From the NCBI GenBank assembly GCA_964386625.1, contig CAYLTF010000005.1, forward strand, positions 1-61,592: 61,592 nucleotides of DNA, written 5' to 3'. Positions 9,894-43,627 of this stretch are shown here, piece after piece (position 1 is the first letter of the stretch; each line of letters starts with the position of its first letter). The notes under the pieces were generated by a model, which had not been told where the DNA came from, made no database searches, and saw only the letters and a list, made by a program, of their open reading frames with translations. The DNA comes from an uncultured Akkermansia sp. (GTDB lineage Bacteria > Verrucomicrobiota > Verrucomicrobiia > Limisphaerales > UBA9464). Made by a program: the position numbers and the translations under genes.

Positions 9894-11270
<1,377 letters not shown>

Positions 11271-24133: not shown

Positions 24134-24700
24134 TCAGGGAGAACAGGCGATCACTCCGGGCGTGGAATAGAGGTAGCGTCCGTCCCCGATCGGGTGGCGG
24201 GCGATCACGGTGACCCTGTCATTCTTCGGCTTGAACCCGCCCCAGCGAAGCGTCAGCTGGTAGCCCGTTCCGACCATCGCCTGGGTTTCGTAACTCTTGA
24301 GATCCTTGGCCGTGAAAGTCCAGGTGTGGGCGGGTTGAGGAAGCGGGGCGTTGTTCCCGGTCAGGAGTCCGTCGAAGAGCAGGATCTCGATCTCACCGCT
24401 GCGGATCTGTCCAGGTTTCGCCGCGTTGCCCACGTTCGCGAAGAGTTTGACGGCGACCCCATCCGGCCCCGCCGCGCCATCCAGATTCAGGGCGACCGGC
24501 ATCGTCAACAGATGGAGTTCCAGGATCCCCGACGACCGCTGCGAACCGCGGCCTCGCATACCGGTTCCGGATGCGGTCCCCGAACCTCCGGTGCCGCATC
24601 CGACGGCCAGCCCGAGGACCAGCGCGATGCACAGCATCGGCACCCGGCCCGGGAGATGGCGGCCTGCGTGGAGGACTGGGAATCGGGATGTGGGCATCAC
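24134..24700 (-). CDS. Lipoprotein translationally coupled to the giant secretin (candidate pilotin/accessory)
   Basis: 188 aa. Its ATG (24700-24698) overlaps the secretin stop (24699-24697) as ATGA. The lipobox is 'LVLGLAVGC'; the mature part looks beta-rich. Confidence 0.6.
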   Translation of the reverse strand: MMPTSRFPVLHAGRHLPGRVPMLCIALVLGLAVGCGTGGSGTASGTGMRGRGSQRSSGILELHLLTMPVALNLDGAAGPDGVAVKLFANVGNAAKPGQIRSGEIEILLFDGLLTGNNAPLPQPAHTWTFTAKDLKSYETQAMVGTGYQLTLRWGGFKPKNDRVTVIARHPIGDGRYLYSTPGVIACSP

Positions 24701-27700
24701 TTCTTGCCGGCGGGTGTGTTGGTCTTGGAGCCGTTGGGGTCGTTCGGGAAGATCGAGTCCAGCAACTGGGCCTTCAGCGGATCCTTGTGCTCTGCGCTGC
24801 GAAGCGTCGACTTCTCCAGCATCCGGGTCGAGTAGTTCCCGATGGTGGTGATCTTGGCCTCCTGGTCATGGTTGGCGGTCAGCACCTGGGGCGTCAGCAT
24901 GATGAGCAGTTCCCGGCGCTCGGTCTTCTTGGACGAGCTGCGGAAGAAGAAACCGACACCCGGGATGTCGCCGAAGAAGGGCGTCTTTTTGCGGCGGATG
25001 TCGTCGACGGTGCCGATGAGGCCGCCGATGACCACGGTCTGGCCGCTCTGCACCGTGACCGTCGTGGAGGCGCGTCGCTCGTTGATGATCGGCACGGTCG
25101 CCTTGTCGTTGATCTCCACGCTGGAACTGGCCAGGGAGCTGTTGGTGGCGCCCACATCGATCTTCACGAAACCTTCGCCGGTGATGCGCGGAGTGACGGT
25201 GAGGTTCACACCCACGTCGCGGTAGTCGAAGGTGTTGATCTGGCCGCCCTGCGGTGTGGTGGAACTGCCGGTGATGATCGGGACCCGTTGGCCGATGTTG
25301 ATCGAGGCGATCTTGTTGTCGGCGGTGAGGATCTGCGGCCGGCTCAACACCTCCACTCGGCCGTCGTTCTCGAGGGCCCGCATCAGGAAGTTCATGTTGT
25401 TGCCGGTGACCAGCGCCGAATAGCCCCCGAAGTTCTGCATCTGGGCGGGGATGCCGAAGTCGGTGCCGGTGCCGACGTTCCAGCCGTTGCCGACATTCTT
25501 GGTGAAGCTCCACTCGAAGCCCAGGTCGCGGTTCGAGTCGAGGGTCACCTCGGCCAGGAGCACCTGGATGAGCACCTGCGACTGGGCTTGGTCGAGCTCC
25601 TCGATGATCTGGTGGATCTGCTCGAAATACCGCGGGCTGGCCGAGAGCAGCAGGGTGTTGCTGACCTGCTCGGGCACGATGGCCACCTCGCGCTCCAGCA
25701 GGCGCTGGGCGGTGCCGACCGCGTCGGTGCCCAGCACCTGGGTGACCCGCTGGCGTTCCTGGTCAAGGAAGCTGCGGATGGCGGTGCCGACATCGGGTGC
25801 CTGGGCGTTCTTGAGGCGATAGACCTCGGTCTTGCGCTCCAGGGCCTCGGACGAATCGAGAGTCTCGATGATCTGCTGGACCAGCGCGACGTAGTGCTCG
25901 GTGCCGCCGACCAGCAGGGTGTTGGTCCGGGGATCGACGCTGACCGTCAAGGCAGTCTGCTCCTCGGAGCCGATGACGGCGGTGGCCGAGGCGGTCTCGG
26001 TGCCATCCGGGGCCGGCTTCATGAGGGTGTATTGGATGGTCCGCTGCCCGTTGGCGGCCAGCGCGGTGCCGCTGGACTGCATGCGGAACATCGAAAGCAG
26101 CAGTTGGGCGGTCTGCTGGGCGTCGGCGTTGCGGAGCGAGAACACGCGGATCTTGGCCTCGCGCGAGGAACTGTTGTCGAGGCGGCCGACGATCTGCTCG
26201 AGCAGGCCCATGTAGTCGACCGGTCCGGACACCACGAGGGCGTTCATGCGCGGGTCCGGCGTGATCGAGATCGCCTCCTTGAGGGCGGCGGTCACCAGCT
26301 CCTGTCCGTCCTCGGTCCGGGTCACGAATTGCAGCACCGACTGGGCATTCGGGCTCAGGTCCGAGAGCGGGGCGATCTTTGAATTCAGGGAGGTGTTCAA
26401 GACCTGGGTGAGGTTCTCGGCCCGGGCGTACTTGAGGGGAATCACGCGGATCTCGCTCACGCGTGCGGTCTGGTCGGTGTCCAGCTTCGCCACTACGTCG
26501 CGGATGCGCTTCAGGTCGGTGGCTCCGCAGGAGACCACCAGCGCGTTCACCCGCTCGTCGGCGCTCACCACGATGGGCAGGGGACCGCCCTGGGTGCCTT
26601 CACGGAAAAGGCCCTGGACGGTCTGGGCGACCTTGCGGGCGTCGGCCTTGGCCAGGGGGATCACTTCGACCTTGAGGCCCAGTTCAGCCTGCTGCGTGTC
26701 GAGCCGCTGGATCAGGCCGTCGATCATGGACATGTCCTCGACCACCGCACCCACGATCAGCGCGTTCACCCAGGCGTCGGCGACCACGGTGATCGGATCG
26801 ACCGGCTCACCCCGTGCCTTGGGCGGGCGGTTGGCGAAGAGTCGCTGCAAGGTCGTCTGCAGGCGGACCGCGGTGGCCTCCTTGAGGGGGAAGACCCGGA
26901 AATTCAGCTGGGCGAGGCGGTCCTCGGCGTCGAGCTGGGGCACGATGCGGTCGAGCATGTCGATGGCCTCCTTGGAGCCGGTCGCGAGGATGGCATTGAG
27001 CCGGGTGTCGGCGATCACGGCCACGGGCATGCTGCGCTCCGGTGCATTGAGCGAGGCGGCGTCGGCCGCCTTGCGGGCCTGGAGGTACTGGGTGAGGACC
27101 CCCGCCAGGTTGGAGGCCCGGGCGTGCTCCAGCTTGTACACTTTGAGGTCGGTGGCGGCCACGAAGTCCACGGTGTCGACCTTGGCGAGGATCTCCTTGA
27201 TGAGACCGAGATTGTCGGGGCTCGCCGAGACCATGAGCGTGTTGCTCCGGGTATCCACGGCGATGGCCATGGCGTCCCGGCTTGCCTGGCCTGGGATCTT
27301 CACGTCGGACCGGCCCGGGCGGTACATGCCTTGCTGGACCAGGCTCTTGAGCATGGTGGCCACGCGCTGGGCGTCGGCATGCTTGAGGACGAAAGTCTCC
27401 AGCACACCCTCGGCGACGGTGGGTTCGACATCGATGCGGGTGAGCAGGTCCTTGATGAGGTCCAGGTTCTCCTTGTTGGAGGAGACGATCAGGGAGTTGT
27501 TGAGACTGTCGGTCTGGATCTCCACCCGGTCGGTGGGGGAGGGAGTCTGGCCGGGCAGGGTGCGCGCCTGGATGCGGGCGGCGAAGACACCCTCGAGAGT
27601 GGCGGCAACCCGTGCGGCGTCGTTGTGCTTCAGGGGCAGGACGGTCAGCGCCAGCGAGGGGTTGTCGAGCTTGCGGTCGAGCTTCTTGAGGAGGGCGTCG

Positions 27701-30700
27701 ATGGTCTCGTTGTCCTCGCGGCCGGCGGACACCATCAGCGCGTTGACCCGGGCGTCGGGCAGGATCACCGGTTTCTGGCGCTGGATCTCGGGCGAGGTGC
27801 TCGCCTGGTAGCGTTGGGTGAACAACTGATTGAAGGACGCCGCGAGGATGCGGGCGTCTGCATACTCCAGCGGCACGATGCGCACGCCGCCGGTCAGGCC
27901 CGGTGCGGCGTCGTCGAGCTTGCGCGCGAGAGATTCGACCAGTTCGTACGCATCCTTGCCACCGCCGACCAGGAGGCTGTTGGAGCGCGGTTCAGGCAGC
28001 ACCAGCACCTTGAGGCTGTCGGCCTGGCCTTTCCCGAGGGAACCCTGGCGGGTGACCCGCTGATCCATGAGGCGCTGCAGGGTCGCGGCCAGTTGGGCGG
28101 CATCGGCATGGGCGAGGGGCAGGATGCGGATGTCCCGGAACTCCGGCGCCATCGGCTTGTCGAGTTGGGCGATGAGGTTGTCGATGATGGCGAAGGCCTT
28201 GTCGTTCCCGGAGACGATCATCGAGTTGCTGCGATCATCGAGCGTGACGGTCGGGCGATCGGCCGGCTTGGCGTTGGCGTTGCGCGGGCCATTGTGGAGA
28301 TCGGAGATGATCTTCTGGACCGAGGCCGCGTCGGCGTGCTTGAGCGGATAGATGCGGACGGTGCTCAGCCCCGAGGCATCGGGGATGTCGAGTTGGGCCA
28401 GCAGTTCCTCGATCAGCGGCAGGGTGTCGGCGCGGGCGGCGACGATCAGGGCGCCGGCATTGTCGTCGGCCTGCAGGGTCAGGGCGGTGCGGGTCTTGGC
28501 CTGCTCGGTGGAGACCGTCTTGCCGCCCTCGCGGCGGGTCTGCAGCCGGCTGACATAGTTGTTCAACCCCTCGGTTCCCGGGACCGCCGGCCCCTCGGCG
28601 AACACGGATTGAAGCATCGGCAGCAGGCGGCTCGGGGTGGCGTATTTCACCCGGAACACCTTCACCTCGGTGATGGACGCGTCCCATTGCTTGTCGAGGT
28701 CTTTGACGAGCTTGCGGGCCAGCTCGATGGAGTCCTTGCGGCCGGACAGGATGAGGGCGTTCAGGCGGGAATCCGGAGTGACATTCAGGAGGCTGGCCAG
28801 TGCGCGTGCCGATCCGTTCTCGGGCTTGCCCGGGCCGTCCTGGCGGGTGCCGAGCTTGGCGCCCTGGGTGAAGATGGAGGTCAGGGTCTGGGCGGTGGTC
28901 CGGGCATCGGCGTGGAGCAGGGCCACGACCGCGAAGTCGGCGGCCTCGGCGGAGCCCACCTGGTCGAGCATCTCCACGACCTTGCCCAGGGCGTCGAGGT
29001 TCTTCGGGGTGGAGGTGATGAGCAGGCGGTTGCCGTCGCTGGGATCGGCCGTGATCTTGATCGGGCGCTGGAGATCGAGGGCCAGCGGTTCGCCCGAATC
29101 CCCCCGGATGTTGAGTTTGCGGACCTGCTCCTGGAGTTCACGCGCCTCGGTGCCCGCTTCTCCGGTGGCTCCCGGTCGCAACAGGTTCTGCAGGGTCGTG
29201 GCCATCGCCGGCGCGGCATTCTGCTTGAGCGTGAACACCCTCACCTCGGCTTCCGCATCTTCGCTGGGGGTGTCGAGGGTCTTGATCATCTTCTCCACCT
29301 GGGCGATGAGCGGCTCGCGGGCCACCACCAGCAACCCCTTGGATCGGCCGTAGGGGAGCACCGTGAGGGGATCGCCGGGATGCTGGGCGGCGAGTTGCTG
29401 GATCAGTTGCTGGACCAGCGGCGTGATTTTGGACGGGGGGGTGTGGGTGAGGGTGATGAGCCGATGCGACAGGTCGGCTGCCGGGTTGGCCGTGTCGAGT
29501 TGTTTGACCAAGGCCTCGATGATGGAAAAATCCTTGGCCGAGGCCCGGACCAGGAGGCTCCGGGATCGGGACTCGGGCACCACGGTGAAGCGGGGTGGAC
29601 GCTGGTTCTGCTGGTTCTGCTGGGCTTCGGGCTGCCCGCCACGGCCACCACCCGGACGGAAGACGTTGTTGAGGGTCCGGGCCATGACCACCGGGTCGGC
29701 CTGCGACAGGGCCAGGATGCGGAGGTCGCTCTCGCCCGAGGTGGCCTTCCAAGACAGGTCGGTGACCATGCGGTTGATGCGGTCGAGTTCCGGGGCCGGG
29801 CCCGACAGGATCAAGGCATTGGCGTTCCGGTCGAGGGCCACGGTGACCTCCGGGGCCTGTGCCGGATTGTTGGTCTTGGTGCGGTCGATCGCCGGCAACC
29901 GTTCGACCAGCTTCAGCGAAGCGCCGTACATCTGCGGATAGATGTTGGTCAGCATGCCGACCATCTGCTCCACCGGCACGTCATCCACCGTCAGGAGCCG
30001 GACTTGGAGGCTGTTGTCCTGGGCGGAGGTGTCCAGCCGCTGGATCAGGTCCTGGATCTGGGGCATGTCGGAGCGCCGGGCGATCACTGTCAGGGTGTTG
30101 GCCTCGCGGTCCACCTCGAGGACGGGCTGTTCGCCGCGAGGGCGCTCCTCATAGACGGCGGCGACCTTCATGCGGATGTCGGCGGCCCGCGCATTCTGGA
30201 GCCAGACGAACTGCACGTCGCGGTCCGAGCGCTCCGGGGCCTTGTCGAGGGTCGGCAGCAGTTGCTCGATGAGTTTGAAATGGGTGGCCGAGGCGGTGAT
30301 GAGCAGACTGTTGGATCGGGGATCGATGGCGATGGCCGGCTGGGAACGGCCACCGAAACCGCGGCGTTCGAGCCGGGTGCTCACGTTGGCCAGCAGCTGG
30401 GAGAGCACCGGCTGGATGTCGGTGGCGTTGGCGCTGCTGAGCTTGTAGATGCGGACCTCCACCTCGCCGGTGGCGCTTTCCGCGTCGAGCTCCTTGACCA
30501 GCTTCATGACCTCCTGCACGGCCTCGCCCGGCCCGTTCAGCAGGAGGGCGTTGGCGCCGGTCACCGGGGTGATGCTGACCCGGCGGAGCTTGGCGTCGGT
30601 CCCCTTGCTGGCGATGGCCTTGTTGACCGACTCGGCCACGGTCTCTGCGACCGTCTTGCGCAGGAGCACCGTCTGGAGCACCGACGAGCCGCCCGGGTCC

Positions 30701-33700
30701 GAGACATCCACGGAATGGATGACCGACTGGACCCGCTCGAAGAGGGCGGGGGGCGCGTTGACGAGGAGCGAGCGCTCGTCGAGGGCCGGGGTGACGACGA
30801 GCCGTTGGGCGTTGTCGGTGAGGGCCATCTCGCGGGCGAAGAGTTGACCGAGCAGGGTGATCACCGGCGCCGCGGTCACATGCTGCAGCGGCAAGGTGCG
30901 CACCCCGCGAACCAGGTTGGTGTCCGTGGTCAGGAGGCGTGAGGCGATTTCCTGGACCGCCTGCCATTGGGTGGGATTGGCGGTGACGAGCACGCGCGAC
31001 TGGGAATCATCGGGGACCAGAACGAGGTCGGTCGTCTTGCCCGAGGCCTTGAGGCGGTCGAGCACCAGCGGACGCAGGCGGGCCACCGCCTCGGTGGCCG
31101 AGCCCTGGGTGATCGGCAGGATCTGGAGGTCCCGCGCCTCGCGGGTGGTCGTGGCGTCGAGTTGGGTCACGATCTGCTCGGCGGCCTGCAGATCCTTGGC
31201 CTCACCCGAAACCACGAGGGTGCGGGCGGTGTTGTCGACACCGAGAGTGACCCGAGGCGTGATCCGGCCCGAGGATTCCACCGTGGCCAGCGTGTTCGAC
31301 AGGGCGGCCGCAACCTGGGCCGGCTCGGCGTTGGTCAGACGGAAGATCCGGGAGTTGCCCGAGCGCTGGTTGGCGGTATCGAGGTTCAAGACCAGGGCGG
31401 CGATCTGGTCCAGGTCATTGGTGCGTCCGGTGACGATGAGGCGGTTTCCCTCGGTGTCGGCACGGATCACGGCCTGCTCGGCCGGAGGCACGGGTTTGGA
31501 CTTGAGCGATTCCTCATACAGGGAGCGGAGCGTGCCGGCCAATTCGGTGGCCTTCCGCGCGGCCAGATTCAACACCCGTGTCTCTCGTGGGGCAGGGGCG
31601 GCCGTGGGTGCCTGGATCACGCCGAGGAGGGATTCGATCTCGGCGAGGTGATTGGTCCGTGCGGTGACCAGAATGCGACCGTTGGGGGCATCGGGAGTGA
31701 ACACCGCATCGGCCGGGTCGGCCGCGTCCTGGGTCTTCCAGCGTTCGGTGTAGAGCTGCCGGAGCAGGGGAAGCACGCGGATCACCTCGTCGGGCTGTCC
31801 CACCGTGATCGGCCGGGTCTCGCGAGGGGCCAAGGCCGCGGTGTTCTTCTGGAGTTGCTCGAGGATGTTGTCGACCAGCCCGAGCTGGGCCTCGCTGCCG
31901 GCCAGGATGAGCTGGTTGCTCGTGGCGTCATCCAGGATGAGCAGGTCGGAGAGGGCCAGCTCGGGCTGGTTGCGGGACTGGTCGTTGTACAGCTGCCGGA
32001 CGCGGGCCGACATCTCGCCCACCTTGCCCTGGCGCAGGGTGACCACCTTCATGCGGCGGTCGGGTCGGGCCCCGAGGGACGTGTCGAGCTGCTCGATGAT
32101 GGTGGAGACGGCCTGGAGTTCCTTCGGGTCGCCCGTCACGATCAGGGTGCGGCTCTTGGCATCCACCGAGACCGTGGCCCGCTTCTGGGCCCGGCCGAAG
32201 GCATCGTAACGAACCAGCGCGGTGGACAGCACCTCGGCCACCTTGTCCGGCTCGGCCGACCGGATCTTGAAGACCCGGGCTGTCGCGCTCTGCGAACCGA
32301 CCTTGTCGAGCTTGCGCACCAGGTCTTCGATGACGGCCAGCTCGTTGGTCTCGCCGACCACGATCAGGCGGTTGCTGCCCGTGTCGGAGGTGATGGTCGT
32401 GTCGGGCGGGGTGGCCCCGAAGCGGGCCTTGGCCTGGTCGAGGTACAGGCTGCGCACGGTGGTGGCCAACTCGGAGGCCGTCGCTGTGGCCAAGTCGATG
32501 ATGCGGACATCGCGGGAGTCGGCCCCGGGCTTGGCTGGGCTCGTGCCCAATTGCTGGAGGATCGACTCGATCTTCTGCAGGTGATCGGGCCGACCGGTGA
32601 CGATGATGCGCCCGCTGCGGGGATCGGCCAGGATCTGGGCGTCGGCCGGATCGGTGTCGGCACGCTCCTTCCATTGGTCGGTGTACAATTGCTGCAGCAG
32701 CGGTTGCACGCGCTGGACGTCGCTGGCGGAGCCGACCTCGAAGGTCCGCGTCTCGCGGCCGAGGTTCGTGCCACCGGTGCTCTTGAGATTGGCGATGATC
32801 TCCGAGATGCGGTCGAGGTGGGAGACCCGGCCCGAGGCGATGATCCGGCCCGAGCGGGGCTCGGTGATGAGCTGGGTGTCGGCGGGACCGTCGGAGGGGC
32901 GGCTCGAGGCCTGGTCCTTGTAGAGCTGCTGGATGATCGGGAGCAGGCGCTGGGCCTCGGCGGGCTTGCCGATCTCGAAGACCCGGTTCGTGCGCGCCTC
33001 GGGCATCTCGGTGGCCAGCGTGGTGACGATCTGGCGCACGGCCGTCGCCTGGTCGGCGGTGCCGAACACCATCAGCCGGTCGCCGCTGGGGTCGGTGTAC
33101 AGGGTGGCCGGCTTCGTGGTGCGCCCCTGGTTCTGCTCGGCGTAGATCTTGTTGACCATCGGCAGGAGGTCCGCGGCGCGGCTGCCCTGGGGTTCGATGG
33201 TGTGCAGTTGGCGCTGCGACTGATCCGGGCGGGCGTCGAGGGCCGAGATCACCGTCTCCACCTGCGCCATCAATGAATCCGGCGCGAGCACGATCAGTCG
33301 TCGGCCGTTCGGCTCCGGGGTGATGCTCACCAGGTTGGTCACCGAGCGTCCGGCGTTCTGGGCCATGAACACGCGGGTGGCCACCTGGGCGAGCGTGTCG
33401 GGTTCACCGACCACCTCCACCATCTTCAGATTGCGGTTCTTCGACCCGCCCGAGGTGCCCCCGTTCCCCTCGGCCCCCTCGTTGTCGAGGCGTTGGATGA
33501 TCCCCTCGGCGTCCTTCAGGTCCTGGCGGGATCCGGAGACCACGATGCTGTTGGACTCCCGATCGAGGGAGACCGAGGCCCGGCGGATGGGCTGGTTGCG
33601 GGCGTCGAATTTCACCATGGCGTTGGAGACCACGCTGACGACCTGGGCGGCGTCGGCGTTGTTGAGCCGGAAGACCCGGGCGCCGCCGGCGGCCTCCGGG

Positions 33701-36597: not shown

Positions 36598-37599
36598 TCA
36601 GAATTGGGCGATGCCCGGGGGCAATTGCTCCGGTTTCAGTTTGTGGCGTTGGGCGAAGGTGCCACCGCGTTCGATGGCCCAGTATTCGTTGCCGATGCGA
36701 AGGATGACCCGACTGCCCGACAAGACGTCTTCTCGGCCCGGAGTCGGCATCGGGCGGTAGTCCACCTGGACGATGACCCCCCCGGCGATGCTGTCGCCCA
36801 CCTTGTAGCGGAGGGTCTTCTGGGCGGTCAGGTCTCGGACATGGATCTCGGACTCGCCGGCCCACTCCGACAGCGAGACCAGGCGGAAGGTTTCCGGGCC
36901 CGGACTGCCCGGGGGGGCCGGGCGGGGCGGGGCCGGGGGTTGGCCCACCGGGGGCGCCGGTGCCGGGCGCGGGATGTAGGGGCGCAGGAGGTCCCGCGCG
37001 ACCATGGCATCGTAGGCGCGCCGCTCCGGGCTCTCGGCGTTGAGGCGGGATTCGAGGTCGCCTCGCTCGACCTCGGGACACGGAGCGGGCACCAGGGTGA
37101 GGTAGCGGAAGCTCACCCGGACACGGCCGGGGGCGTCGGATGGGGAGAGGGTCAGACCGTCAAGCCGATGGACCGGCGTTGCACGGTCGAGCAGGAAGAT
37201 CAGGTTGACCACCTGCGCGAGCGGACCGTCGCCACGGACCGTCCAACCGGTCTCGAGCGCGCCGCGGATCTTGCGGGTGCCGGTCGGGAGGCGGCTGAAG
37301 TCGGCTTCCCGCAGGCCGCTGTTGATCAGGGTCCGCGTGAGCATCTCGCCGAACCGGGCGCTGGCCTGGTCGATGTCGTCGGAGAAGGTTCGGGCGGCGA
37401 CGGCTTTCACCGCATCCTCGGCGGCGAAGTAATCGCGGCGTTCCTTGGCGAGCCGATCGAGCTTCTCGCGGACGCCGGCGATGCGTCGGTCGATCTCGGT
37501 CAGCGGCTTGAGGAAGACGCTGCGACCGATCACGAAGAGCAGCGCCACACCGACGAGACCCCCGATGACGGTCAGGAGCTTTTTCTCGCGATCGTTCAT
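36598..37599 (-). CDS. Bitopic inner-membrane assembly protein: GspM/PilO-like N-half plus GspC/PilP-like C-terminal domain
   Basis: 333 aa. One N-terminal TM ('LLTVIGGLVGVALLFVIG'), a coiled-coil-like segment, a globular region, the Pro-rich linker 'RPYIPRPAPAPPVGQPPAPPRPAPPGSPGPE', and a ~90-aa beta-rich C-domain. It lies between the PilM/N-like gene and the secretin. The domain assignment is inferred from architecture and position. Confidence 0.5.
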   Translation of the reverse strand: MNDREKKLLTVIGGLVGVALLFVIGRSVFLKPLTEIDRRIAGVREKLDRLAKERRDYFAAEDAVKAVAARTFSDDIDQASARFGEMLTRTLINSGLREADFSRLPTGTRKIRGALETGWTVRGDGPLAQVVNLIFLLDRATPVHRLDGLTLSPSDAPGRVRVSFRYLTLVPAPCPEVERGDLESRLNAESPERRAYDAMVARDLLRPYIPRPAPAPPVGQPPAPPRPAPPGSPGPETFRLVSLSEWAGESEIHVRDLTAQKTLRYKVGDSIAGGVIVQVDYRPMPTPGREDVLSGSRVILRIGNEYWAIERGGTFAQRHKLKPEQLPPGIAQF

Positions 37600-39266
37600 C
37601 GAGCCCCTCCCTTCCGGGGATTCTCAAGGGACATGTCGTCGGCGGGCCGGGCCGGGGGGTGTAGCTTGTTCAGGTCGAACTTGAGCTTGGCCGGAACGGT
37701 GAGCTCGACCGTGGTGCGGAAGTTGTACCCGTTGCGATCAGCGCCCGGGGTCACGGCCAGGGGCTTCACATCGTAGCCGGCGGCCCGCAGCAGACGGTCG
37801 ACCTTGCCGAGGATCTCGCCGTTGCGGGCCTGGACTCCCAGGCGGATGGCCCGGTTGGGTCCGAAGGCGACGGAAGTCAGGTAGATCTCCTCGCTGGGCG
37901 GCAGCACCGCGCTCAAGTGGGCATAGTGGTCGAGCCAGTCGCGCTCCTCGGCCGACCAGGCCTTCAAGGTGGCCGCCTGCTGGATCATCTGGCGGTAGAC
38001 CGGCCGCTTCTTCTCTCCGGTGGTCAGCTCCGACTGGAGGGCGGCGAGCACGGCCTCACGCCGGCTGATCAGCGTCTTGCGCACCCCGAGCACCACGACC
38101 AGGACCGCGACCGCCGCGGCGGCCCCGGCGATCATTCGGATCTTCCGGAGGTCGGGCGGAGGCGTGGGGCGCTTGGGGTTGAGGAAGTCGAATTCGAGGC
38201 CGGACGGGTGGGTGGCCCCCAGTGCGAGGCCGATGCTGGAGAAGCCGCTCGCCACCGCCGCCGCGTCGGATCGTTCCAGGCCAAGCGCGTGAGCGGGTGC
38301 GACCTGGGGCACGGCGAACCCGAGGCGGGTCTGGAGCGCGATCGAAAGGGCCTCTTCATGGCCGGTGCCGCCGAGGATGGCCGCGGCCTCCGGTGCGGTG
38401 CGCCCGGCGGTGCCGCCGAAGGCGTGCAGGCTCCGCACCACCTCGATCGTCGCCGTCCGGACCCATTGCTCGGCATCGGTCTCCGCCGCGGGGGGCATCG
38501 GAAGGCCACGGCTGAACAGCAGGGAGGATCCTTCCAGGATCTCGATGCCGACCTCCTCGGACTTGAGCGCGACCAAGGCTCGTGGCCCGGTCTGCGCCCC
38601 GGCGCCGGTGCCCGTCGCCTGGAGACAGGTGGCGTTCGCCTGCGAGATCCAGCCCACGGCGGCCAGTGAAAGACCCGCGGCCTCGGCCAACCGCCGGAGG
38701 AACTCGAGGGACTCCTGCCGGGTGACGGCCACCAGCACCTCGACACGGTCCACAGAATCGTGGGCCGTCGCCGGGGACGACGCCTGCGTGTCGCCCTCGC
38801 CAGGCTCGCGTGCGGGAAGTCGGCGGAGGATCTGGAAATCGATGATCGCCTCGTCCAGTCGGAAGGGCAGGTCGCGCGCCACCTGGAAGCGGACGAGGGA
38901 CGCGATGGTGCCGGTCAGCCCGGTGTCGGGGACCGCCACCGTCCGGAGGATCACCTGCGAGCGGCCGATCCCGAGCACCACGGGGCCGGGTTTGATCCGG
39001 GCCTTGGCCAGCGCCTTCGCGATGGCCGTCCCGAGGACGGAGGCATCGGTCCGATCGGCGTCGTCCGGCAGTTCGAGGGCCAAGGCGCGGACCTGGTCGA
39101 CGCGGCTCGAGTTGCCCGATCGGGTGGCCTCGGCGATGCGGAGCACCCGGCCGTCGACCTCCAGCGCCGTCACCGCAGGCAGGCCACGGACCGTGGGGCG
39201 CGAACCTGCCCCCCCGGGGAGTCGGGATCGGATCTGACCGGTCAAATCTTTGAGGGAAATTCCCAT
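37596..39266 (-). CDS. PilM-like (actin-fold) / PilN-like fusion; functional analogue of GspL
   Basis: I prefer the ATG at 39266; the track start is a GTG at 39290. The N-terminal ~380 aa resemble PilM ('VLGIGRSQVILRTVAVP', 'LVRFQVARDLPFRLDEAIIDFQIL'). One TM follows ('IRMIAGAAAAVAVLVVVLGV'), then a periplasmic ~160-aa domain. The stop overlaps the next gene's start (ATGA at 37596-37599). Confidence 0.6.
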   Translation of the reverse strand: MGISLKDLTGQIRSRLPGGAGSRPTVRGLPAVTALEVDGRVLRIAEATRSGNSSRVDQVRALALELPDDADRTDASVLGTAIAKALAKARIKPGPVVLGIGRSQVILRTVAVPDTGLTGTIASLVRFQVARDLPFRLDEAIIDFQILRRLPAREPGEGDTQASSPATAHDSVDRVEVLVAVTRQESLEFLRRLAEAAGLSLAAVGWISQANATCLQATGTGAGAQTGPRALVALKSEEVGIEILEGSSLLFSRGLPMPPAAETDAEQWVRTATIEVVRSLHAFGGTAGRTAPEAAAILGGTGHEEALSIALQTRLGFAVPQVAPAHALGLERSDAAAVASGFSSIGLALGATHPSGLEFDFLNPKRPTPPPDLRKIRMIAGAAAAVAVLVVVLGVRKTLISRREAVLAALQSELTTGEKKRPVYRQMIQQAATLKAWSAEERDWLDHYAHLSAVLPPSEEIYLTSVAFGPNRAIRLGVQARNGEILGKVDRLLRAAGYDVKPLAVTPGADRNGYNFRTTVELTVPAKLKFDLNKLHPPARPADDMSLENPRKGGAR

Positions 39267-39431: not shown

Positions 39432-40871
39432 TCAGGGGCGGGGTCCCGTCGGTGCCGCCGTGTCTGTTCCGGTCGATTGGACCGGATCGTCCGATGGGAT
39501 TCCCTCCTCGGATTCCAGGCGGATCGGGAAGGGGAGCCCCAGGCGGGTGAGATCCCTCAGATATACCAGTCGGGTCGGCGGGCTGGAGGCATCGATGACG
39601 GCTTCCAGGATTCGAAACCGCCCGGACCGTGCGCCATAAGCCAGCACCTGGAACCGGAACTGGAGGCTGCGGGTCGTGAGGAATGGGGCGATCTCCCGGA
39701 ACCGTTCGGCGTCCACCAGGTTCTCCACATGGATCCAGGCGATCGATGCCCGTCGCTCCGCAGGCAGGTTCCGTCGGGCCGAGAGGATGCTCTCGGCGAG
39801 GGCGTTGTCGATGCCGGGCACGAGTTGCAGCACGCTGGCCGGGGCGGTGTTGACGTTGATCCGGCCGACGAGCTCAGCCTCGGCGGATCCGGTGAACCGG
39901 TCGAGCACCAGGGCCAACGAGTCTTTGCCGATCCCGGTGGGCACCGATCGCTCCTGTCCGTCCGGACCGCTCAGCGTGACCGTGGCATCCAGCAGTTCCG
40001 CCGGATCGAGCACCACGCTCTTGGAGGCTCCCAGTTCCGCGACGAACGCCACGAAGGCGGGCGGGAGATCGTTGGTCTCGGTGAGGGTCGCCCCGGGGGT
40101 GTTGAGGTGGAAGCGGCGTTTCCCGTTCCGGTCGGTGTTGGGTTCGCGTGAATAGACCGTCAGCAGCGGCAGCAACCCTGGATTGAGGCGTCCGTCGGCG
40201 TCGTCCGGCGGTTCCCGCTCGTCGCCGTCATCCTCGTTCGGATCGAGGGAGAAGTTGCGGTTGGCATCTTCTCCGAGGACGACCGCCGGCGTGAAACCAC
40301 GGACGAGCAGCAATTGTTCGACCGTGGACAGGGCTCCATTGTGGATGCGGTAGGGTTGCGGCAGGGCGCTGTAGTATTCCTGCTCGGCTCCCTCGGGACG
40401 GGGCACATCATCCGCGTCGAGGAAATCGAGCAGTGCGTCGGTGAGCGAGGCCTTCATCCCGGGCAATCGGCTGACCATCGACGTGGTCGCGGAGTTGAGA
40501 TTGAGCTTCGAAGCCTCGTCGGTGAGACCGAATCGGATGCCTCCCTCGGGGTTCGCCGAATAGATCGTCCATCGCCACTCCTCGGACCCGTCGTCGTAGA
40601 GCACGCGGTCTTTGAAGCGCTCCGGGGCGTCCATCCAGGAGGTGTCGCCGGCCTGCAGTCCCGAAGCCAGACGCATCGCTTCGCGCACTCCGCTCATCGC
40701 CGTCGACCACCCCTGTTCTGCAGTGGAACCGGTCGCCCCGGCGGTCTCTTCGGAGCGCATGCGGAACATCAGGCTCAGGGCGATCATCGACATCAGCATC
40801 ACCACGACGAGGACCCCCACGAGGACGAAAGCCCGGGGGGATTGTGCGGAACCCAAACGAGGGGTCCTCAT
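39432..40871 (-). CDS. gspK: Type II secretion minor pseudopilin GspK-like
   Basis: The ATG at 40871 overlaps the gspJ-like stop. The hydrophobic N-terminus lacks Glu5 ('PRAFVLVGVLVVVMLMSMIALSL'). Two helix-hairpin-helix-like segments are typical of GspK ('LNLNSATTSMVSRLPGM', 'INVNTAPASVLQLVPGIDNALAESI'). Confidence 0.75.
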   Translation of the reverse strand: MRTPRLGSAQSPRAFVLVGVLVVVMLMSMIALSLMFRMRSEETAGATGSTAEQGWSTAMSGVREAMRLASGLQAGDTSWMDAPERFKDRVLYDDGSEEWRWTIYSANPEGGIRFGLTDEASKLNLNSATTSMVSRLPGMKASLTDALLDFLDADDVPRPEGAEQEYYSALPQPYRIHNGALSTVEQLLLVRGFTPAVVLGEDANRNFSLDPNEDDGDEREPPDDADGRLNPGLLPLLTVYSREPNTDRNGKRRFHLNTPGATLTETNDLPPAFVAFVAELGASKSVVLDPAELLDATVTLSGPDGQERSVPTGIGKDSLALVLDRFTGSAEAELVGRINVNTAPASVLQLVPGIDNALAESILSARRNLPAERRASIAWIHVENLVDAERFREIAPFLTTRSLQFRFQVLAYGARSGRFRILEAVIDASSPPTRLVYLRDLTRLGLPFPIRLESEEGIPSDDPVQSTGTDTAAPTGPRP

Positions 40872-41656
40872 GGGGCCGGGACCTCCTCTGCCATCGCCGG
40901 TTCGACCATCGCGGCGGGTTGTGCAAGCGCCGCGGGCAGCGCGATGACCCGGCGGAACACCTCGAACGGGTAGTCGGCCGGCGCGTCGCCGGTATCCGTG
41001 ACCTCGTCGGGGAATGTCTCTTCGATGGGGTCCAGGCCGAGCGAAACCTCGACGGCAGACGGCGGTTCGGCCTTGTCCCATGCGCTCTGCCAACGGGATC
41101 CATCCCAGTACCGGAAACGCAGATAACCGATGGCCTCCGAGAGGAGCGCGCCACCCGAGGATGGGATCGAGTTCGTGCCGCCGACCGAGGGCGATTCGAT
41201 CTCGGTGGGCAGGTTGGTGGAGACCGCGGCGCTGGCCGTATGCGCCCGTTCCTGCCGGAACAATCCTGGTTGATTGGTGTCGGACGACCATCGGTAGGCG
41301 ACCTCCATCCAATCGGCCTCCGCGATCGCAGCCCGGCCCAGATTCCCTCCGCGCCAGGGAGTCTTGGACGGAACCGCCGTGTGGAGCATCCGCAGGGAGC
41401 GGGAATCACCGGAGAGGATCGGGGTCCCCGGGGTCGCGGGTGGAACCGTGCGCAGTTCGCTGCTGATCCGATCCATCACCAAGCGCACTGCGGAAAGGGC
41501 GTCGGCCTTGCGCAGGATCTCTTCGCGGAGGACCGAAGCCTGTCGATAGAACACCAGGACGCCCGTGAGCAGGCCGACGGCGATCACGATCGCCAGGACC
41601 ACCTCGATCAGGGTGAATCCACCGGCATCCCCGGGGTTGCGCCTTGGAATCGTCAT
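40868..41656 (-). CDS. gspJ: Minor pseudopilin GspJ-like (prepilin-type N-terminal cleavage/methylation domain)
   Basis: 'GDAGG/FTLIEVVLAIVIAVGLL' prepilin site with Glu5, and a 'LRFRYWDGSRWQSAWD' segment typical of GspJ. 262 aa. Confidence 0.65.
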   Translation of the reverse strand: MTIPRRNPGDAGGFTLIEVVLAIVIAVGLLTGVLVFYRQASVLREEILRKADALSAVRLVMDRISSELRTVPPATPGTPILSGDSRSLRMLHTAVPSKTPWRGGNLGRAAIAEADWMEVAYRWSSDTNQPGLFRQERAHTASAAVSTNLPTEIESPSVGGTNSIPSSGGALLSEAIGYLRFRYWDGSRWQSAWDKAEPPSAVEVSLGLDPIEETFPDEVTDTGDAPADYPFEVFRRVIALPAALAQPAAMVEPAMAEEVPAP

Positions 41657-42087
41657 GGCTCGGCAGGGGGTTCTTCCGGGGTCCCCGGGGCAGAATCGCC
41701 GGCGCTCAACGACGGCGTCTGGATGACTTGGGCCAACCGTCGCACCACTTCCGGATCGGCATGACGAACGATGATCTCATGCGGAGTCCCTGGGGTGTCT
41801 CCGCTGGGCGGGACGATCTGCCAGGTCCAGTTGGTGAAAGGAGGCTGGAAGGGGGCCGGCCCCAGGACCGCGGCCGATCGAAGACCGACCTCGAGTTCTG
41901 CGACCACCGAAGCGGCCAAGTTGTCGGCGTGGGCTCCCAACCGCAGCCGCTCCTCGCTATCGATGGCCGACTGGAGGGCGCTGCTGATCACCGCCGCAGC
42001 CGCCACGAAAAGGACCAGGGCCAGCACCACCTCGAGCAACACCGAGCCCGTTTCGGGTCGGGCTTGGATCTGGGGCCGCTTCAGCAT
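41653..42087 (-). CDS. gspI: Minor pseudopilin GspI-like
   Basis: 144 aa. 'PETG/SVLLEVVLALVLFVAAAAV' is a prepilin-like site with Glu5. Size and position between the H-like and J-like genes fit GspI. Confidence 0.55.
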   Translation of the reverse strand: MLKRPQIQARPETGSVLLEVVLALVLFVAAAAVISSALQSAIDSEERLRLGAHADNLAASVVAELEVGLRSAAVLGPAPFQPPFTNWTWQIVPPSGDTPGTPHEIIVRHADPEVVRRLAQVIQTPSLSAGDSAPGTPEEPPAEP

Positions 42088-42129
42088 CGCGGGAACAGGC
42101 GCTCGGGGCGATGCCCCCGCAACAAGGAC

Positions 42130-43065
42130 TCAGCGTCGGCCCCGGGATGTCGTCGTCGAGGCGGTCGCGCGCGGCGACAGCCTCGATGGGGAGGACTCGT
42201 AGACAGCCGAACCCGCATCGGCGGGGGACGCGGTTCCGGACGACGGGTTCGCCGAAGTCCCACGCGTCGAGGCAACCGGATCACGGCTCTCGCTCGTGCC
42301 CGCAGCGCTGGACGATTCCTTCCAGTGCCGTCGGGTGGTGCCGGTGACGCTCTCGAGATGCACGGCCACCTCGCGGACATCGTCGCTGTCGCGGCTGGCC
42401 AAGACGATGGTCGCTCCGTCGCAGGAACCGTCGGGGTAGAAGGTGATCGTCGTTTCTCCGGGATTGGAGCCGCCCGCGGCCCGGGTCGAGGTGTCGGGAC
42501 CAGGATCCGCCCCGGATTCCGAATCACCGCTCCCGGAGGCGGGAAACGCGAGGGCAGCCGAGGCGGCGGTGCCGGACTCGAAAGCGTCGCCGTCGATCGA
42601 GGCCGTCGCCGATTCCACTCCTTTGGAGTCACGACCGACGGAACGGATCTCGACCAGTTCCGAGACATCGGTGACCTCGGCCGAGAGGGATGGGATGGGC
42701 TCGAACACCCCCGGAGCCCTCGCGGGATCGGCTTCCCAGAGGATGCTCAGGGAGGGGGCGGATTCACCGGTCCCGGTGGCGTCGGGGTTTCCCTTGGGTG
42801 TCCCCGGCGTGGAGACTCCCGGGGCTTCGGCGGCGGTCACCACGACCTGGACCTTGCGGCCGGTGTTGGCCGCATGGGCACGGGCGAACCGCATGGCGGT
42901 TTCCACCCGCTCGACCCCTTCGTTGAGTTGGGCGCTCCGCTGCAGGCTGGAGAAGCCGAAGACGGCCGCGGCCATCAATCCTGCCAGCAGGGTCACGGCC
43001 AGGAGCAGCTCCACCAGAGTGAAGCCACCTGTGCGCAACCGGCGATGGCGGGAGGTCAGCATCAT
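42130..43065 (-). CDS. gspH: Pseudopilin GspH/FimT-like with extended low-complexity C-terminal region
   Basis: ATG at 43065. 'RLRTGG/FTLVELLLAVTLLAGLMAAAV' prepilin site, followed by 'LQRSAQLNEGVERVETAMRFARAHAANTGRKVQVVV', which resembles the GspH/FimT domain start. At 311 aa it is longer than usual, with S/G/T/A/D-rich stretches. Confidence 0.6.
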   Translation of the reverse strand: MMLTSRHRRLRTGGFTLVELLLAVTLLAGLMAAAVFGFSSLQRSAQLNEGVERVETAMRFARAHAANTGRKVQVVVTAAEAPGVSTPGTPKGNPDATGTGESAPSLSILWEADPARAPGVFEPIPSLSAEVTDVSELVEIRSVGRDSKGVESATASIDGDAFESGTAASAALAFPASGSGDSESGADPGPDTSTRAAGGSNPGETTITFYPDGSCDGATIVLASRDSDDVREVAVHLESVTGTTRRHWKESSSAAGTSESRDPVASTRGTSANPSSGTASPADAGSAVYESSPSRLSPRATASTTTSRGRR

Positions 43066-43081
43066 GGCCGTGCCTTGTCGA

Positions 43082-43627
43082 TCACGGGTTCGATCCGCCC
43101 GAGGATCCGCCGGCATTGGCGCCGCCGGCACCCGAGGTGTCGGATTCGGTGGACATCTTGATGTCGTCGTCGTTGTCGGGCTGCCCGTCGGGGCCGACCG
43201 AGAAAAGTTTGTAGGGCAGGGCCGACTTGGCCCCGTCGGAACCTTGCGACCGATCGACGACCTCGTAGCGGATCGGGAAGCCCCACGGGTCGTCCAGGCG
43301 GGTGCCCGGCTTGAGGTAGGGCCCTTGCCACTTCTCACCCTGGCGCTCGTTCTCGAAGGTGGGCTTGGTCAGCAACGCATTGAGACCGCCCTCTTGTTCC
43401 GTCGGATAGTGGCCGAGATTCAGGCGGTAGGTGTCGAGGGCGCTGGAGATGTTGTTGAGCAGCAGCCGGGTGGTGTTCTTCTCGGCGCCCTCCTGTTGAG
43501 GCAGCACGAACACGACCAGGGCTCCGGCCAGGAGCAGGATGATCACGATGACCAGCAGGATTTCGATGAGCGTGAAGCCGGCGGCCTGGCGGACGCGGCG
43601 AGCGGAGTTTTGGAGCGGGAGTCTCAT
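43082..43627 (-). CDS. gspG: Type II secretion major pseudopilin GspG-like
   Basis: 181 aa. 'RQAAG/FTLIEILLVIVIILLLAGALV' prepilin site, and a GspG-like core ('ISSALDTYRLNLGHYPTEQEGLNALL...WQGPYLK...DPWGFPIRY'). Confidence 0.8.
   Translation of the reverse strand: MRLPLQNSARRVRQAAGFTLIEILLVIVIILLLAGALVVFVLPQQEGAEKNTTRLLLNNISSALDTYRLNLGHYPTEQEGGLNALLTKPTFENERQGEKWQGPYLKPGTRLDDPWGFPIRYEVVDRSQGSDGAKSALPYKLFSVGPDGQPDNDDDIKMSTESDTSGAGGANAGGSSGGSNP

What the first reader, a model, noticed from the sequence alone, without database searches (positions are those of the whole stretch)
24134..43627. Hybrid T2SS/T4P-like operon built around the giant secretin, lacking ATPase, platform and peptidase
Seen: nine co-directional minus-strand genes with short gaps or ATGA overlaps. 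The order is GspG-like, GspH-like, GspI-like, GspJ-like, GspK-like, PilM-PilN-like fusion, GspM/PilO + GspC/PilP-like fusion, giant secretin, lipoprotein. A strong intrinsic terminator (43760-43794) isolates the operon from ilvB upstream. The pseudopilin set (G-K, with K lacking Glu5 and carrying HhH-like motifs) is T2SS-like. The inner-membrane alignment components look like the T4P PilM/N/O/P logic rather than GspL/M/C. No GspE/PilB-type ATPase, GspF/PilC platform or prepilin peptidase lies anywhere in this 61.6-kb window. Inference: this is a complete envelope-spanning 'outer' module of a pseudopilus machine whose motor is encoded elsewhere or shared. Its piston or pseudopilus would have to operate through an exceptionally long secretin vestibule. 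The substrate and function (secretion, fibre display, uptake) are unknown.
Basis: partly seen in the sequence, partly recalled or inferred. Interest (0 to 1): 0.8.

Follow-up and report, generated by a model that had tools for sequence, protein, structure and literature searches.

The report
Type II secretion operon, giant secretin
This is most of a type II protein-secretion machine from a freshwater Verrucomicrobia bacterium whose outer-membrane channel protein is about six times the usual length, a feature conserved across a whole bacterial order that I found described in no paper and that may let the machine span a very wide periplasm.

Summary
Nine co-directional minus-strand genes (43627-24134) encode GspG, H-, I-, J- and K-type pseudopilins, a PilM-PilN fusion, a GspM-like protein with an extra C-terminal beta domain, a 3959-aa GspD-type secretin and a lipoprotein. 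No ATPase, platform or prepilin peptidase lies in the window.

The organism is an uncultured Limisphaerales (Verrucomicrobiota). The operon is conserved across 80 related genomes. In 23 of 40 informative relatives, gspE-gspF sit directly upstream of gspG, so the missing motor is a lineage-specific relocation. In one congeneric genome assembly the two gene sets lie on different contigs.

"Hybrid T2SS/T4P" is only partly right. The gene order G-H-I-J-K-"L"-"M/C"-D is the canonical T2SS order. The L position is filled by a true PilM-PilN fusion, which has the same architecture as GspL.

The remarkable part is the secretin: N0 plus about 43 divergent ring domains. These are orthologous one-to-one across the order and under strong purifying selection. 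It belongs to a large family of 2000-6900-aa secretins in Verrucomicrobiota and Phycisphaerae.

If the domains stack like known secretin rings, they would form a periplasmic tube of roughly 130-170 nm. No paper describing this was found. It is a new variant of a known kind.

The parts
43763..43795 (-). Intrinsic terminator of the upstream ilvB gene. It marks the 5' boundary of the operon.
   Evidence: 14-bp stem, 5-nt loop and T-run; sequence read.
43082..43627 (-). gspG, major pseudopilin (181 aa). Prepilin motif G|FTLIE. GspG-type 'GPDGQPDNDDDI' loop. Gly/Ser-rich C-terminal tail.
   Evidence: TIGR01710 at 99.7 bits, above the 88.85 cut-off; Pfam T2SSG 2.2e-20. 66-96% identical in 60+ related loci.
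42130..43065 (-). gspH-like minor pseudopilin (311 aa, with a long low-complexity insert).
   Evidence: Pfam GspH at 23 bits (gathering score 21). NCBIfam XpsH 6.9e-7 and GspH 2.9e-5, N-terminal part only. Motif G|FTLVE. Conserved position in the operon.
41653..42087 (-). gspI-like minor pseudopilin (144 aa).
   Evidence: The only NCBIfam hit is gspI at 4.3e-4, below its cut-off. Motif G|SVLLE. Conserved position. No PDB hit with the profile.
40868..41656 (-). gspJ-like minor pseudopilin (262 aa).
   Evidence: A profile of 19 orthologues hits EpsJ/GspJ structures at 5.6e-4 over the conserved R-G-W-W region. Pfam T2SSJ 6e-3. Motif G|FTLIE.
39432..40871 (-). gspK minor pseudopilin (479 aa). Lacks Glu5 and carries a helix-hairpin-helix motif.
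   Evidence: Pfam T2SSK_1st 7.5e-14, HHH_3 6.8e-13, T2SSK 1.1e-4. NCBIfam GspK at 83 bits is the best hit but is below its 130-bit cut-off.
37596..39266 (-). pilM-pilN fusion (556 aa), occupying the GspL position. Cytoplasmic actin-like PilM domain (aa ~27-355), invariant FDFLNPK motif (359-365), transmembrane/coiled-coil helix (373-419), and a periplasmic alpha/beta domain (to ~523).
   Evidence: Pfam PilM_2 at 38 bits (gathering score 27). PDB profile search hits PilM at 8.5e-18 and no GspL. AF2 model has pLDDT 79. Foldseek gives PilM 1e-20 (TM 0.64-0.74) against EpsL/GspL 6e-9 (TM about 0.55). hhalign against E. coli GspL is not significant.
36598..37599 (-). GspM-like bitopic protein (333 aa) with a Pro-rich linker and a conserved C-terminal beta domain (aa ~237-321). 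It is a candidate GspC-HR/PilP-like connector to secretin N0.
   Evidence: NCBIfam GspM_XpsM 1.3e-3 over profile positions 8-159 of 180. 8 of 19 orthologues hit it, best 2.3e-5. GspC_delta 0.022, 2 of 19. The C-terminal domain is highly conserved. The fold is not verified.
24697..36576 (-). Giant GspD-type secretin (3959 aa).
   Evidence: Collinear with orthologues over about 2950 aa at 32-93% identity. dN/dS about 0.04-0.12.
36115..36300 (-). Secretin N0 domain (aa 93-154). It follows a signal peptide and a Ser/Thr/Ala/Pro-rich linker.
   Evidence: Pfam type_II_gspD_N0 1.7e-5. The same family is recorded in orthologues.
25588..36021 (-). Array of about 43 tandem N1-type (Secretin_N) ring domains (aa 186-3663) joined by 8-24-residue linkers (mostly 8-12).
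   Evidence: Pfam Secretin_N, 38 stretches, 1158 bits in total. A self-built HMM finds 43 domains. Mean pairwise identity is 23% and there are no DNA tandem repeats.
24880..25377 (-). Outer-membrane secretin (pore) domain (aa 3734-3899).
   Evidence: Pfam Secretin 1.5e-48. On the C-terminal 599 aa, NCBIfam gives GspD 320 bits, PilQ 206 and SctC 187.
24700..24879 (-). Conserved C-terminal tail after the pore domain (motif ...RD-LQKQ(I/L)LDP(I/L)F-P). It may be an S-domain-like docking site.
   Evidence: Alignment of 18 C-termini, including Planctomycetota-labelled relatives. The function is inferred.
24134..24697 (-). Small lipoprotein (187 aa; lipobox LAVGC) of no known family. Candidate pilotin or accessory protein of the giant secretin.
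   Evidence: Homologues lie immediately downstream of the giant secretin in two divergent relatives (L087: 37% identity, 4e-21; L106: 28%, 2e-14) and near the operon in L084. No Pfam, NCBIfam or PDB hit.

Best explanation
The locus encodes the pseudopilus (GspG plus the H/I/J/K tip set), the inner-membrane alignment proteins and the outer-membrane channel of a type II secretion system. The organism is an uncultured freshwater Limisphaerales (Verrucomicrobiota) bacterium.

Shown:
- Family identity of G, K, the PilM-PilN fusion and the GspD-type secretin.
- Order-wide conservation of the operon.
- In most relatives gspE-gspF directly precede gspG. In the window's sub-lineage ilvB sits there instead. 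In a congeneric MAG, gspE-gspF form a separate two-gene unit on another contig.

Inferred mechanism:
1. A prepilin peptidase encoded elsewhere processes the five pseudopilins.
2. GspF, the PilM-PilN fusion (a GspL analogue whose actin-like domain docks the GspE hexamer) and the GspM-like protein form the assembly platform.
3. The C-terminal beta domain of the GspM-like protein contacts secretin N0, as GspC or PilP do.
4. The K-I-J(-H) tip primes a GspG filament that grows inside the secretin.

The secretin has N0 plus about 43 ring-forming N domains. By analogy with the stacked N rings of GspD and Thermus PilQ, this would give a continuous periplasmic tube of roughly 130-170 nm. That is probably an adaptation to the enlarged, variable periplasm of PVC bacteria. 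The pseudopilus would then need to be pilus-length, about 10^3 subunits, to drive folded proteins out. The downstream lipoprotein is a conserved partner, possibly a pilotin.
For: Gene identities.

Taxon and synteny: the G-H-I-J-K-MN-OP-D order is conserved in loci L007-L086, all Verrucomicrobiota/Limisphaerales MAGs.

Motor genes: gspE (T2SSE + MshEN) and gspF (T2SSF) lie directly upstream of gspG in 23 of 40 loci with enough upstream sequence. A stand-alone arrangement ruvB(-)|gspE-gspF|DUF1501 appears in relatives with matching GC of about 60-62%. Both gene sets occur in one MAG on different contigs: CAMATE010000043.1 (L025) and CAMATE010000047.1 (L115).

Secretin: 43 N domains with short linkers. 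The ORF is still open after at least 2500 codons in 41 related loci. It aligns collinearly with one-to-one domain orthology, and dN/dS is about 0.04-0.12. In a search of representative proteins clustered at 50% identity, about 140 of the top 150 are 2000-5500 aa. Cluster members in Phycisphaerae and Planctomycetes MAGs reach 6885 aa.

Precedent: Thermus PilQ's six rings make a 350 A complex that spans a wide periplasm (PMC5745081). Pedosphaera strain Ellin514, which I take to belong to the same order (own knowledge), has a planctomycete-like paryphoplasm (PMC2647929).

Lipoprotein: linked to the secretin in divergent genomes.
Against: - No expression, proteomic or imaging data exist for this system.
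- The window organism's own gspE/gspF and prepilin peptidase were not located. The only evidence comes from relatives, and that rests on MAG binning.
- The H and I assignments rest on weak hits plus gene position.
- The GspC/PilP-like role of the seventh protein's C-terminal domain is unverified.
- Ring stacking and tube length are extrapolations. Nobody has shown that 44 N domains stack linearly, or that these cells have a periplasm of 130 nm or more.
- It is unclear how a piston could load and push substrates through such a tube.
- The PilM-type rather than GspL-type cytoplasmic domain leaves room for pilus-like dynamics.
Confidence: 0.75

Rival explanations
1. The machine assembles a real surface fibre, a type IV pilus-like filament used for adhesion, uptake or motility, rather than secreting proteins. 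The long secretin is simply the sheath through which the fibre crosses a wide periplasm, as in Thermus.
For: The platform protein is PilM-PilN type, not GspL type. A filament long enough to traverse about 150 nm is already pilus-sized. The Thermus T4P precedent for multi-ring secretins applies. There are weak hits to Akkermansia's Amuc_1101 and Amuc_1098 pilus-cluster families.
Against: The major subunit passes the GspG equivalog cut-off. A GspK without Glu5 and a G-H-I-J-K set are T2SS hallmarks. The secretin scores GspD 320 bits against PilQ 206 and no AMIN domain was reported by Pfam. No PilT-type retraction ATPase lies next to gspE-gspF in any relative examined.
Confidence: 0.12
2. It is an ordinary T2SS, but the 43 N domains do not form a straight trans-periplasmic tube. 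They might form a flexible or collapsible tether, a multi-layered cage, or a periplasmic or peptidoglycan scaffold around a channel of normal length.
For: No structural data exist. Several domains carry 20-30-residue insertions. The substrate-loading problem of a closed 150-nm tube argues for another geometry. Periplasm width in PVC bacteria is variable, according to the literature cited.
Against: Linkers are short, mostly 8-12 residues, as between stacked N1-N3 rings. Every domain is individually conserved with very few indels over about 2950 aa across the order. That pattern is what a fixed-length stacked assembly would predict. Domain number differs between lineages (lengths of 2000-6900 aa), as expected for a spacer or ruler.
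Confidence: 0.25
3. The operon is a decaying remnant that lost its motor, or the giant ORF is an assembly artefact of a repetitive gene.
For: ATPase and platform genes are absent from the window. Some long-read assemblies show the secretin broken by frameshifts.
Against: The same intact 3959-aa ORF is on independent contigs. There are no DNA-level repeats. dN/dS is about 0.04 against a 93%-identical orthologue. The gene is conserved in dozens of species. The motor genes are present elsewhere in a congeneric MAG.
Confidence: 0.03

Closest known systems
Canonical Gsp type II secretion system (E. coli/Klebsiella/Vibrio gspC-O)
   Same: Gene order G-H-I-J-K followed by two bitopic platform proteins. 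GspG equivalog. GspK without Glu5 and with an HhH motif. GspD-type secretin with N0. gspE-gspF directly upstream of gspG in most orthologous operons.
   Different: The secretin is 3959 aa with about 43 N domains, against the three (N1-N3) of canonical GspD (own knowledge). The L position holds a full PilM domain fused to PilN, with no detectable sequence similarity to E. coli GspL. The GspM-like protein carries an extra C-terminal domain and there is no separate gspC. The secretin lies at the 3' end of the operon. In this lineage gspE/F are unlinked. No gspO was seen.
Thermus thermophilus type IV pilus/DNA-uptake machine with multi-ring PilQ
   Same: Extra N-terminal ring domains lengthen the secretin so that it spans a wide periplasm. 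It has a PilM-type cytoplasmic component (PMC5745081; PDB 2YCH hit).
   Different: Thermus PilQ has six rings (757 aa, 350 A). Here there are about 44. The pilins and secretin here are Gsp type. PilM and PilN are separate proteins in Thermus.
PilMNOP alignment subcomplex of type IVa pili (Myxococcus, Pseudomonas)
   Same: The cytoplasmic domain is closest to PilM in both sequence and predicted fold. An invariant FDFLNPK segment sits where the N-terminal peptide of PilN binds PilM (my reading of the alignment).
   Different: PilM and PilN are covalently fused. No separate PilO or PilP. No AMIN-domain PilQ. No PilA, PilB or PilT nearby.
Akkermansia Amuc_1098-1102 type IV pilus-like cluster (NCBIfam Amuc_1098 and Amuc_1101 families)
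   Same: Same phylum. Weak similarity of the PilM-like protein and the secretin pore domain.
   Different: Scores are far below the family cut-offs (27.7 against 650; 88.5 against 750). It is a different system.

Membership tests
Type II secretion system (Gsp) | Major pseudopilin GspG | tested here: met
   TIGR01710 equivalog at 99.7 bits, above the 88.85 cut-off; Pfam T2SSG 2.2e-20.
Type II secretion system (Gsp) | Minor pseudopilins GspH, I, J and K, with K lacking Glu5 | tested here: inconclusive
   K is clear at domain level (T2SSK_1st 7.5e-14, no Glu5) but falls below the NCBIfam cut-off. H passes the Pfam gathering score narrowly (23 against 21 bits). J hits EpsJ structures at 5.6e-4. 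I shows only gspI at 4.3e-4. Order and prepilin motifs fit.
Type II secretion system (Gsp) | GspD-type secretin with an N0 domain | tested here: met
   Pfam Secretin 1.5e-48 and N0 1.7e-5. For the C-terminal 599 aa, GspD 320 bits, PilQ 206 and SctC 187. The GspD cut-off of 351 was not reached with this fragment.
Type II secretion system (Gsp) | GspE ATPase and GspF platform protein belonging to the same system | tested here: inconclusive
   Absent from the window. Present directly upstream of gspG in 23 of 40 orthologous loci, and on a separate contig of a congeneric MAG. Not located for the window's own genome.
Type II secretion system (Gsp) | GspL and GspM assembly proteins | tested here: inconclusive
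   The L position is filled by a PilM-PilN fusion, which has GspL-like architecture but is PilM-like in sequence and fold. The M position gives weak GspM_XpsM hits in 8 of 19 orthologues, best 2.3e-5.
Type II secretion system (Gsp) | GspC (HR domain binding secretin N0) | tested here: inconclusive
   There is no separate gspC. The C-terminal domain of the GspM-like protein hits GspC_delta only at 0.022. The AF2 single-sequence model is unusable (pLDDT 47). hhalign against E. coli GspC is not significant.
Type II secretion system (Gsp) | Prepilin peptidase (GspO/PilD) | tested here: not met
   No prepilin-peptidase family among the Pfam hits for the ORFs scanned across the window, nor in the precomputed hits for the flanks of relatives inspected. 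It is often unlinked in other bacteria (own knowledge).
Type II secretion system (Gsp) | Secretes folded periplasmic proteins | not testable with these tools
   Needs a secretome comparison in a cultured relative.
Type IVa pilus machine (PilMNOPQ) | PilM actin-like cytoplasmic protein | tested here: met
   Pfam PilM_2 at 38 bits (gathering score 27); PDB PilM 8.5e-18; Foldseek 1e-20.
Type IVa pilus machine (PilMNOPQ) | Separate PilN, PilO, PilP proteins and an AMIN-domain PilQ secretin | tested here: not met
   PilN is fused to PilM. The next protein is GspM-like. The secretin scores best as GspD, and no AMIN domain was reported by Pfam.
Type IVa pilus machine (PilMNOPQ) | Major pilin PilA with PilB/PilT extension and retraction ATPases | tested here: not met
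   The major subunit is a GspG equivalog. Only one GspE-type ATPase is linked in relatives, and no PilT was seen next to it.

The most novel reading that the evidence does not exclude
PVC bacteria with enlarged periplasms (Limisphaerales, Phycisphaerae) run a mechanistically distinct 'long-conduit' type II secretion system. A secretin of 40-70 stacked rings would form a tunnel of 130 to over 200 nm whose ring number acts as a ruler for outer-to-inner-membrane distance. A pilus-length periplasmic pseudopilus, built on a PilM-PilN-type platform, would work inside it. A dedicated small lipoprotein would serve the giant secretin.
Probability: 0.4. Interest if true: 0.85.

Novelty: new variant of a known kind. 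Interest (0 to 1): 0.62.

Why it matters
Secretins with more than six periplasmic rings have not been characterised, as far as I could find. [quoted passage not shown]

A conserved family of 2000-6900-aa secretins would be among the longest protein conduits known in bacteria. It challenges the piston model of type II secretion: how are substrates loaded and pushed through about 150 nm?

It also gives a concrete molecular handle on an open question in PVC cell biology, namely how proteins cross the enlarged periplasm. The question becomes directly testable by cryo-tomography of a cultured Pedosphaera or Limisphaera strain.

The PilM-PilN fusion at the GspL position is a natural intermediate that bears on how GspL relates to PilM and PilN.

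Tried and rejected
- A homologue search with the full 3959-aa secretin timed out.
- The word-indexed search with the C-terminal 599 aa returned only fragments of 1045 aa or less. It could not give a length distribution. The exhaustive search of representative proteins did.
- A strict Walker-A regular expression under-counted gspE next to gspG, finding 9 loci. tblastn corrected this to 23 of 40.
- I tried to find the window organism's own gspE-gspF through four exact-protein look-ups. These found only relatives at 60-62% GC, against 66.7% for the window organism. One did give the same-MAG evidence.
- The cluster look-up gave no accession for the window's protein.
- The fold of the seventh protein could not be established. 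The profile search against PDB found nothing. Pfam on 19 orthologues gave only weak T2SSM hits. The single-sequence AF2 model was unusable at pLDDT 47. hhalign against E. coli GspC and GspM was not significant.
- PDB profile searches for GspI and for the lipoprotein found nothing.
- An apparent frameshift of the seventh gene in L003 is a scaffold gap containing Ns.
- I considered and dropped the idea that the secretin underlies planctomycete crateriform structures. No evidence was found in the papers searched, and I know of no report of such structures in Verrucomicrobia.
- Ten literature searches found no description of giant secretins. Subscription journals are not covered.

Full report
**Observation.** The nine minus-strand genes are present as described. 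Their coordinates are:

| Gene | Coordinates | Length |
|---|---|---|
| G | 43627-43082 | 181 aa |
| H | 43065-42130 | 311 aa |
| I | 42087-41653 | 144 aa |
| J | 41656-40868 | 262 aa |
| K | 40871-39432 | 479 aa |
| PilM-PilN fusion | 39266-37596 | 556 aa |
| GspM-like protein | 37599-36598 | 333 aa |
| secretin | 36576-24697 | 3959 aa |
| lipoprotein | 24697-24134 | 187 aa |

Identical gene calls occur on three independent ENA metagenome contigs. Gaps between genes are 16, 42, -4, -4, 165, -4, 21 and -1 nt. A 14-bp-stem terminator with a T-run follows ilvB at 43795-43763.

tblastn with GspE and GspF from relatives finds nothing in the window. Neither does a GspE-type Walker-A motif search. 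No T2SSE, T2SSF or prepilin-peptidase family appeared among the Pfam hits for the ORFs scanned across the rest of the window (precomputed hits).

**What the genes are.**
- G passes the NCBIfam GspG equivalog cut-off (99.7 against 88.85 bits) and carries G|FTLIE.
- K has T2SSK_1st (7.5e-14) and an HhH motif, and lacks Glu5.
- H, I and J have prepilin motifs and only weak family hits: Pfam GspH 23 bits; gspI 4.3e-4; an orthologue profile against EpsJ/GspJ structures at 5.6e-4. Their assignment rests mainly on order and size.
- The sixth protein is a true PilM-PilN fusion. A profile of 12 homologues hits PilM structures at 8.5e-18 and no GspL. An AF2 model (pLDDT 79) shows an actin-like domain, a transmembrane/coiled-coil helix and a periplasmic alpha/beta domain. 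Foldseek ranks PilM (1e-20, TM 0.64-0.74) well above the cytoplasmic domain of EpsL/GspL (6e-9, TM about 0.55). An invariant FDFLNPK segment lies between the two parts. From my own knowledge, it resembles the PilN N-terminal peptide that binds PilM.
- The seventh protein has a weak but near-full-length GspM_XpsM match. 8 of 19 orthologues hit it, best 2.3e-5. It also has a strongly conserved beta-rich C-terminal domain behind a proline-rich linker. The GspC/PilP-like nature of that domain could not be verified.
- The secretin pore region scores GspD 320, PilQ 206 and SctC 187 bits.

**Whose genes they are, and where the motor is.** Homologues of the fusion protein are all from Verrucomicrobiota, mostly labelled Limisphaerales or Pedosphaera, and all are MAGs. 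In 80 genome loci the order G-H-I-J-K-MN-OP-secretin is conserved, down to 40% identity of the fusion protein.

In 23 of 40 loci with at least 3.2 kb upstream of gspG, gspF (preceded in nearly all by gspE) lies directly upstream on the same strand. For two of these loci Pfam confirms gspE (T2SSE + MshEN) and gspF (T2SSF). Several shorter loci show the same arrangement. The usual state, and probably the ancestral one, is therefore gspE-F-G-H-I-J-K-MN-OP-D.

Only the window's close relatives (73-83% identity of the fusion protein) have ilvB at that position. GspF proteins 84-86% identical to that of L021 sit in a different, conserved context: ruvB(-)|gspE-gspF|DUF1501. These contigs have 60-62% GC, like the ilvB-type relatives L007-L013 and L025.

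Most directly, MAG GCA_945861075.1 carries ilvB-G...OP on contig CAMATE010000043.1 (L025) and gspE-gspF-DUF1501 on CAMATE010000047.1 (L115). The motor of the window's own genome (66.7% GC) was not located. No prepilin peptidase was seen in any flank examined.

**The giant secretin.** After a signal peptide, a low-complexity linker and N0 (aa 93-154), a self-trained HMM finds 43 N1-type domains between aa 186 and 3663. They are joined by 8-24-residue linkers, mostly 8-12. Then come the pore domain (3734-3899) and a 60-residue tail.

The domains are only 23% identical to each other on average. The maximum is 55%, in a pattern suggesting an old four-domain block duplication (d14-17 against d18-21). 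There are no DNA tandem repeats.

The protein aligns collinearly with orthologues over about 2950 residues at 32-93% identity with very few gaps. Every domain has its own orthologue. Rough dN/dS is 0.04 against L009 and 0.12 against L021. In 41 related loci the secretin ORF is still open after at least 2500 codons where the retrieved DNA ends. Two long-read assemblies show frameshifted copies summing to more than 3700 and more than 4500 aa.

An exhaustive HMMER search of 1.84 billion representative proteins returned, among the best 150, almost only proteins of 2000-5500 aa. Named members include Phycisphaerae and Planctomycetes MAG proteins of up to 6885 aa. The giant secretin is therefore an old, selected, widespread feature and not an artefact.

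A small lipoprotein of no known family follows the secretin here and in two divergent relatives. The secretin tail carries a conserved motif. A pilotin-like relationship between the two is an inference.

**How it most likely works.** It is a type II secretion machine. The cytoplasmic PilM-like domain of the fusion presumably docks GspE. The fusion, the GspM-like protein and GspF form the platform. The extra C-terminal domain of the GspM-like protein is placed to reach N0. The K-I-J(-H) tip primes a GspG filament.

In solved secretins, N domains stack as rings. The six-ring Thermus PilQ is 350 A long and is described as spanning a wide periplasm (PMC5745081). At 3-4 nm per ring, which is my own estimate, 44 rings give about 130-170 nm.

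Strain Ellin514 (subdivision 3), which I take to belong to the same order (own knowledge), shows a planctomycete-like paryphoplasm (PMC2647929). That compartment is now read as enlarged periplasm. Ring number as an adaptation to periplasm width is therefore plausible but not shown.

A filament spanning that distance would need on the order of 10^3 subunits. How substrates would enter such a tube is unexplained.

**Comparison and novelty.** The system works like a Gsp T2SS and meets the G and D criteria. It differs in four ways:
- the roughly 43-domain secretin;
- a PilM-PilN fusion instead of GspL;
- a fused GspM-plus-extra-domain protein with no separate GspC;
- in this lineage, unlinked gspE/F.

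'Hybrid T2SS/T4P' describes the origin of one component, not the machine as a whole. Databases auto-annotate these proteins as 'type II secretion system protein D' or 'secretin N-terminal domain-containing protein'. Ten full-text searches found no paper describing giant secretins or this operon type. The library omits most subscription journals. I class it as a new variant of a known kind.

Noticed in passing
window 9894-13653: A sigma-54-dependent response regulator (Response_reg + Sigma54_activat + HTH_8, minus strand) lies divergent from a flagellar export gene flhA (FHIPEP 3e-265). The organism therefore appears to be flagellated.
   Followed up: no
window 48449-50473 (+): A 674-aa protein with two lamin-tail domains (LTD 4e-27) sits between an AP_endonuc_2-like gene and an unknown 374-aa gene.
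   Followed up: no
window 13780-15291 (-), 20071-21492 (+), 50537-51661 (-), 18550-19284 (+), 57-650 (+): Five ORFs with coding-like GC3 have no Pfam family at E <= 1e-4 (<= 1e-3 for 50537-51661).
   Followed up: no
window 31400-33000 approx. (secretin domains d14-d21): The highest inter-domain identities follow a +4 register (d15/d19 55%, d17/d21 45%, d16/d20 45%). This suggests an ancient duplication of a four-domain block within the array.
   Followed up: partly
window 24700-24879 (secretin aa 3900-3959): A conserved tail motif after the pore domain (...RD-LQKQ(I/L)LDP(I/L)F-P) is shared with relatives labelled Phycisphaerae or Planctomycetota. It may be a docking site for the downstream lipoprotein.
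   Followed up: partly
L069 1-21692; L106 1-13416; L105 1-7735; L048 and L059 upstream regions: The operon is broken at different places in different lineages. In L069, three minus-strand ORFs lie between OP and the secretin, and no G-K genes lie upstream. In L106 the secretin follows fliS. In L105 a gspE-like gene is convergent with the secretin end. In L048 and L059 there are 1-3.5 kb inserts between gspF and gspG.
   Followed up: partly
L057 13059-14399; L066 12785-16315: These are the only two related loci where the secretin ORF stops early, at 509 and 1228 aa. Whether this is a frameshift, an assembly error or a genuinely short form was not determined.
   Followed up: no
record titles of L011, L020, L024, L025, L036, L059, L060, L064-L066, L085: Many MAG records that carry this Verrucomicrobiota operon are labelled Akkermansia muciniphila, Klebsiella, Bifidobacterium, Limnocylindria, Methylomirabilota and so on. 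These look like taxonomy mislabels in the public records.
   Followed up: no
L088-L116 (gspE-gspF loci): The relocated gspE-gspF pair is always followed by a DUF1501 gene and a sodium:solute symporter, and is preceded by a divergent ruvB. Whether DUF1501 is functionally linked is unknown.
   Followed up: no
window 43082-43150 (GspG C-terminus) and 42130-42700 (GspH insert): GspG ends in a Gly/Ser/Ala-rich tail of about 25 residues. GspH carries a long low-complexity Ser/Gly/Ala/Thr-rich insert, which makes it about 120 aa longer than usual GspH proteins.
   Followed up: no
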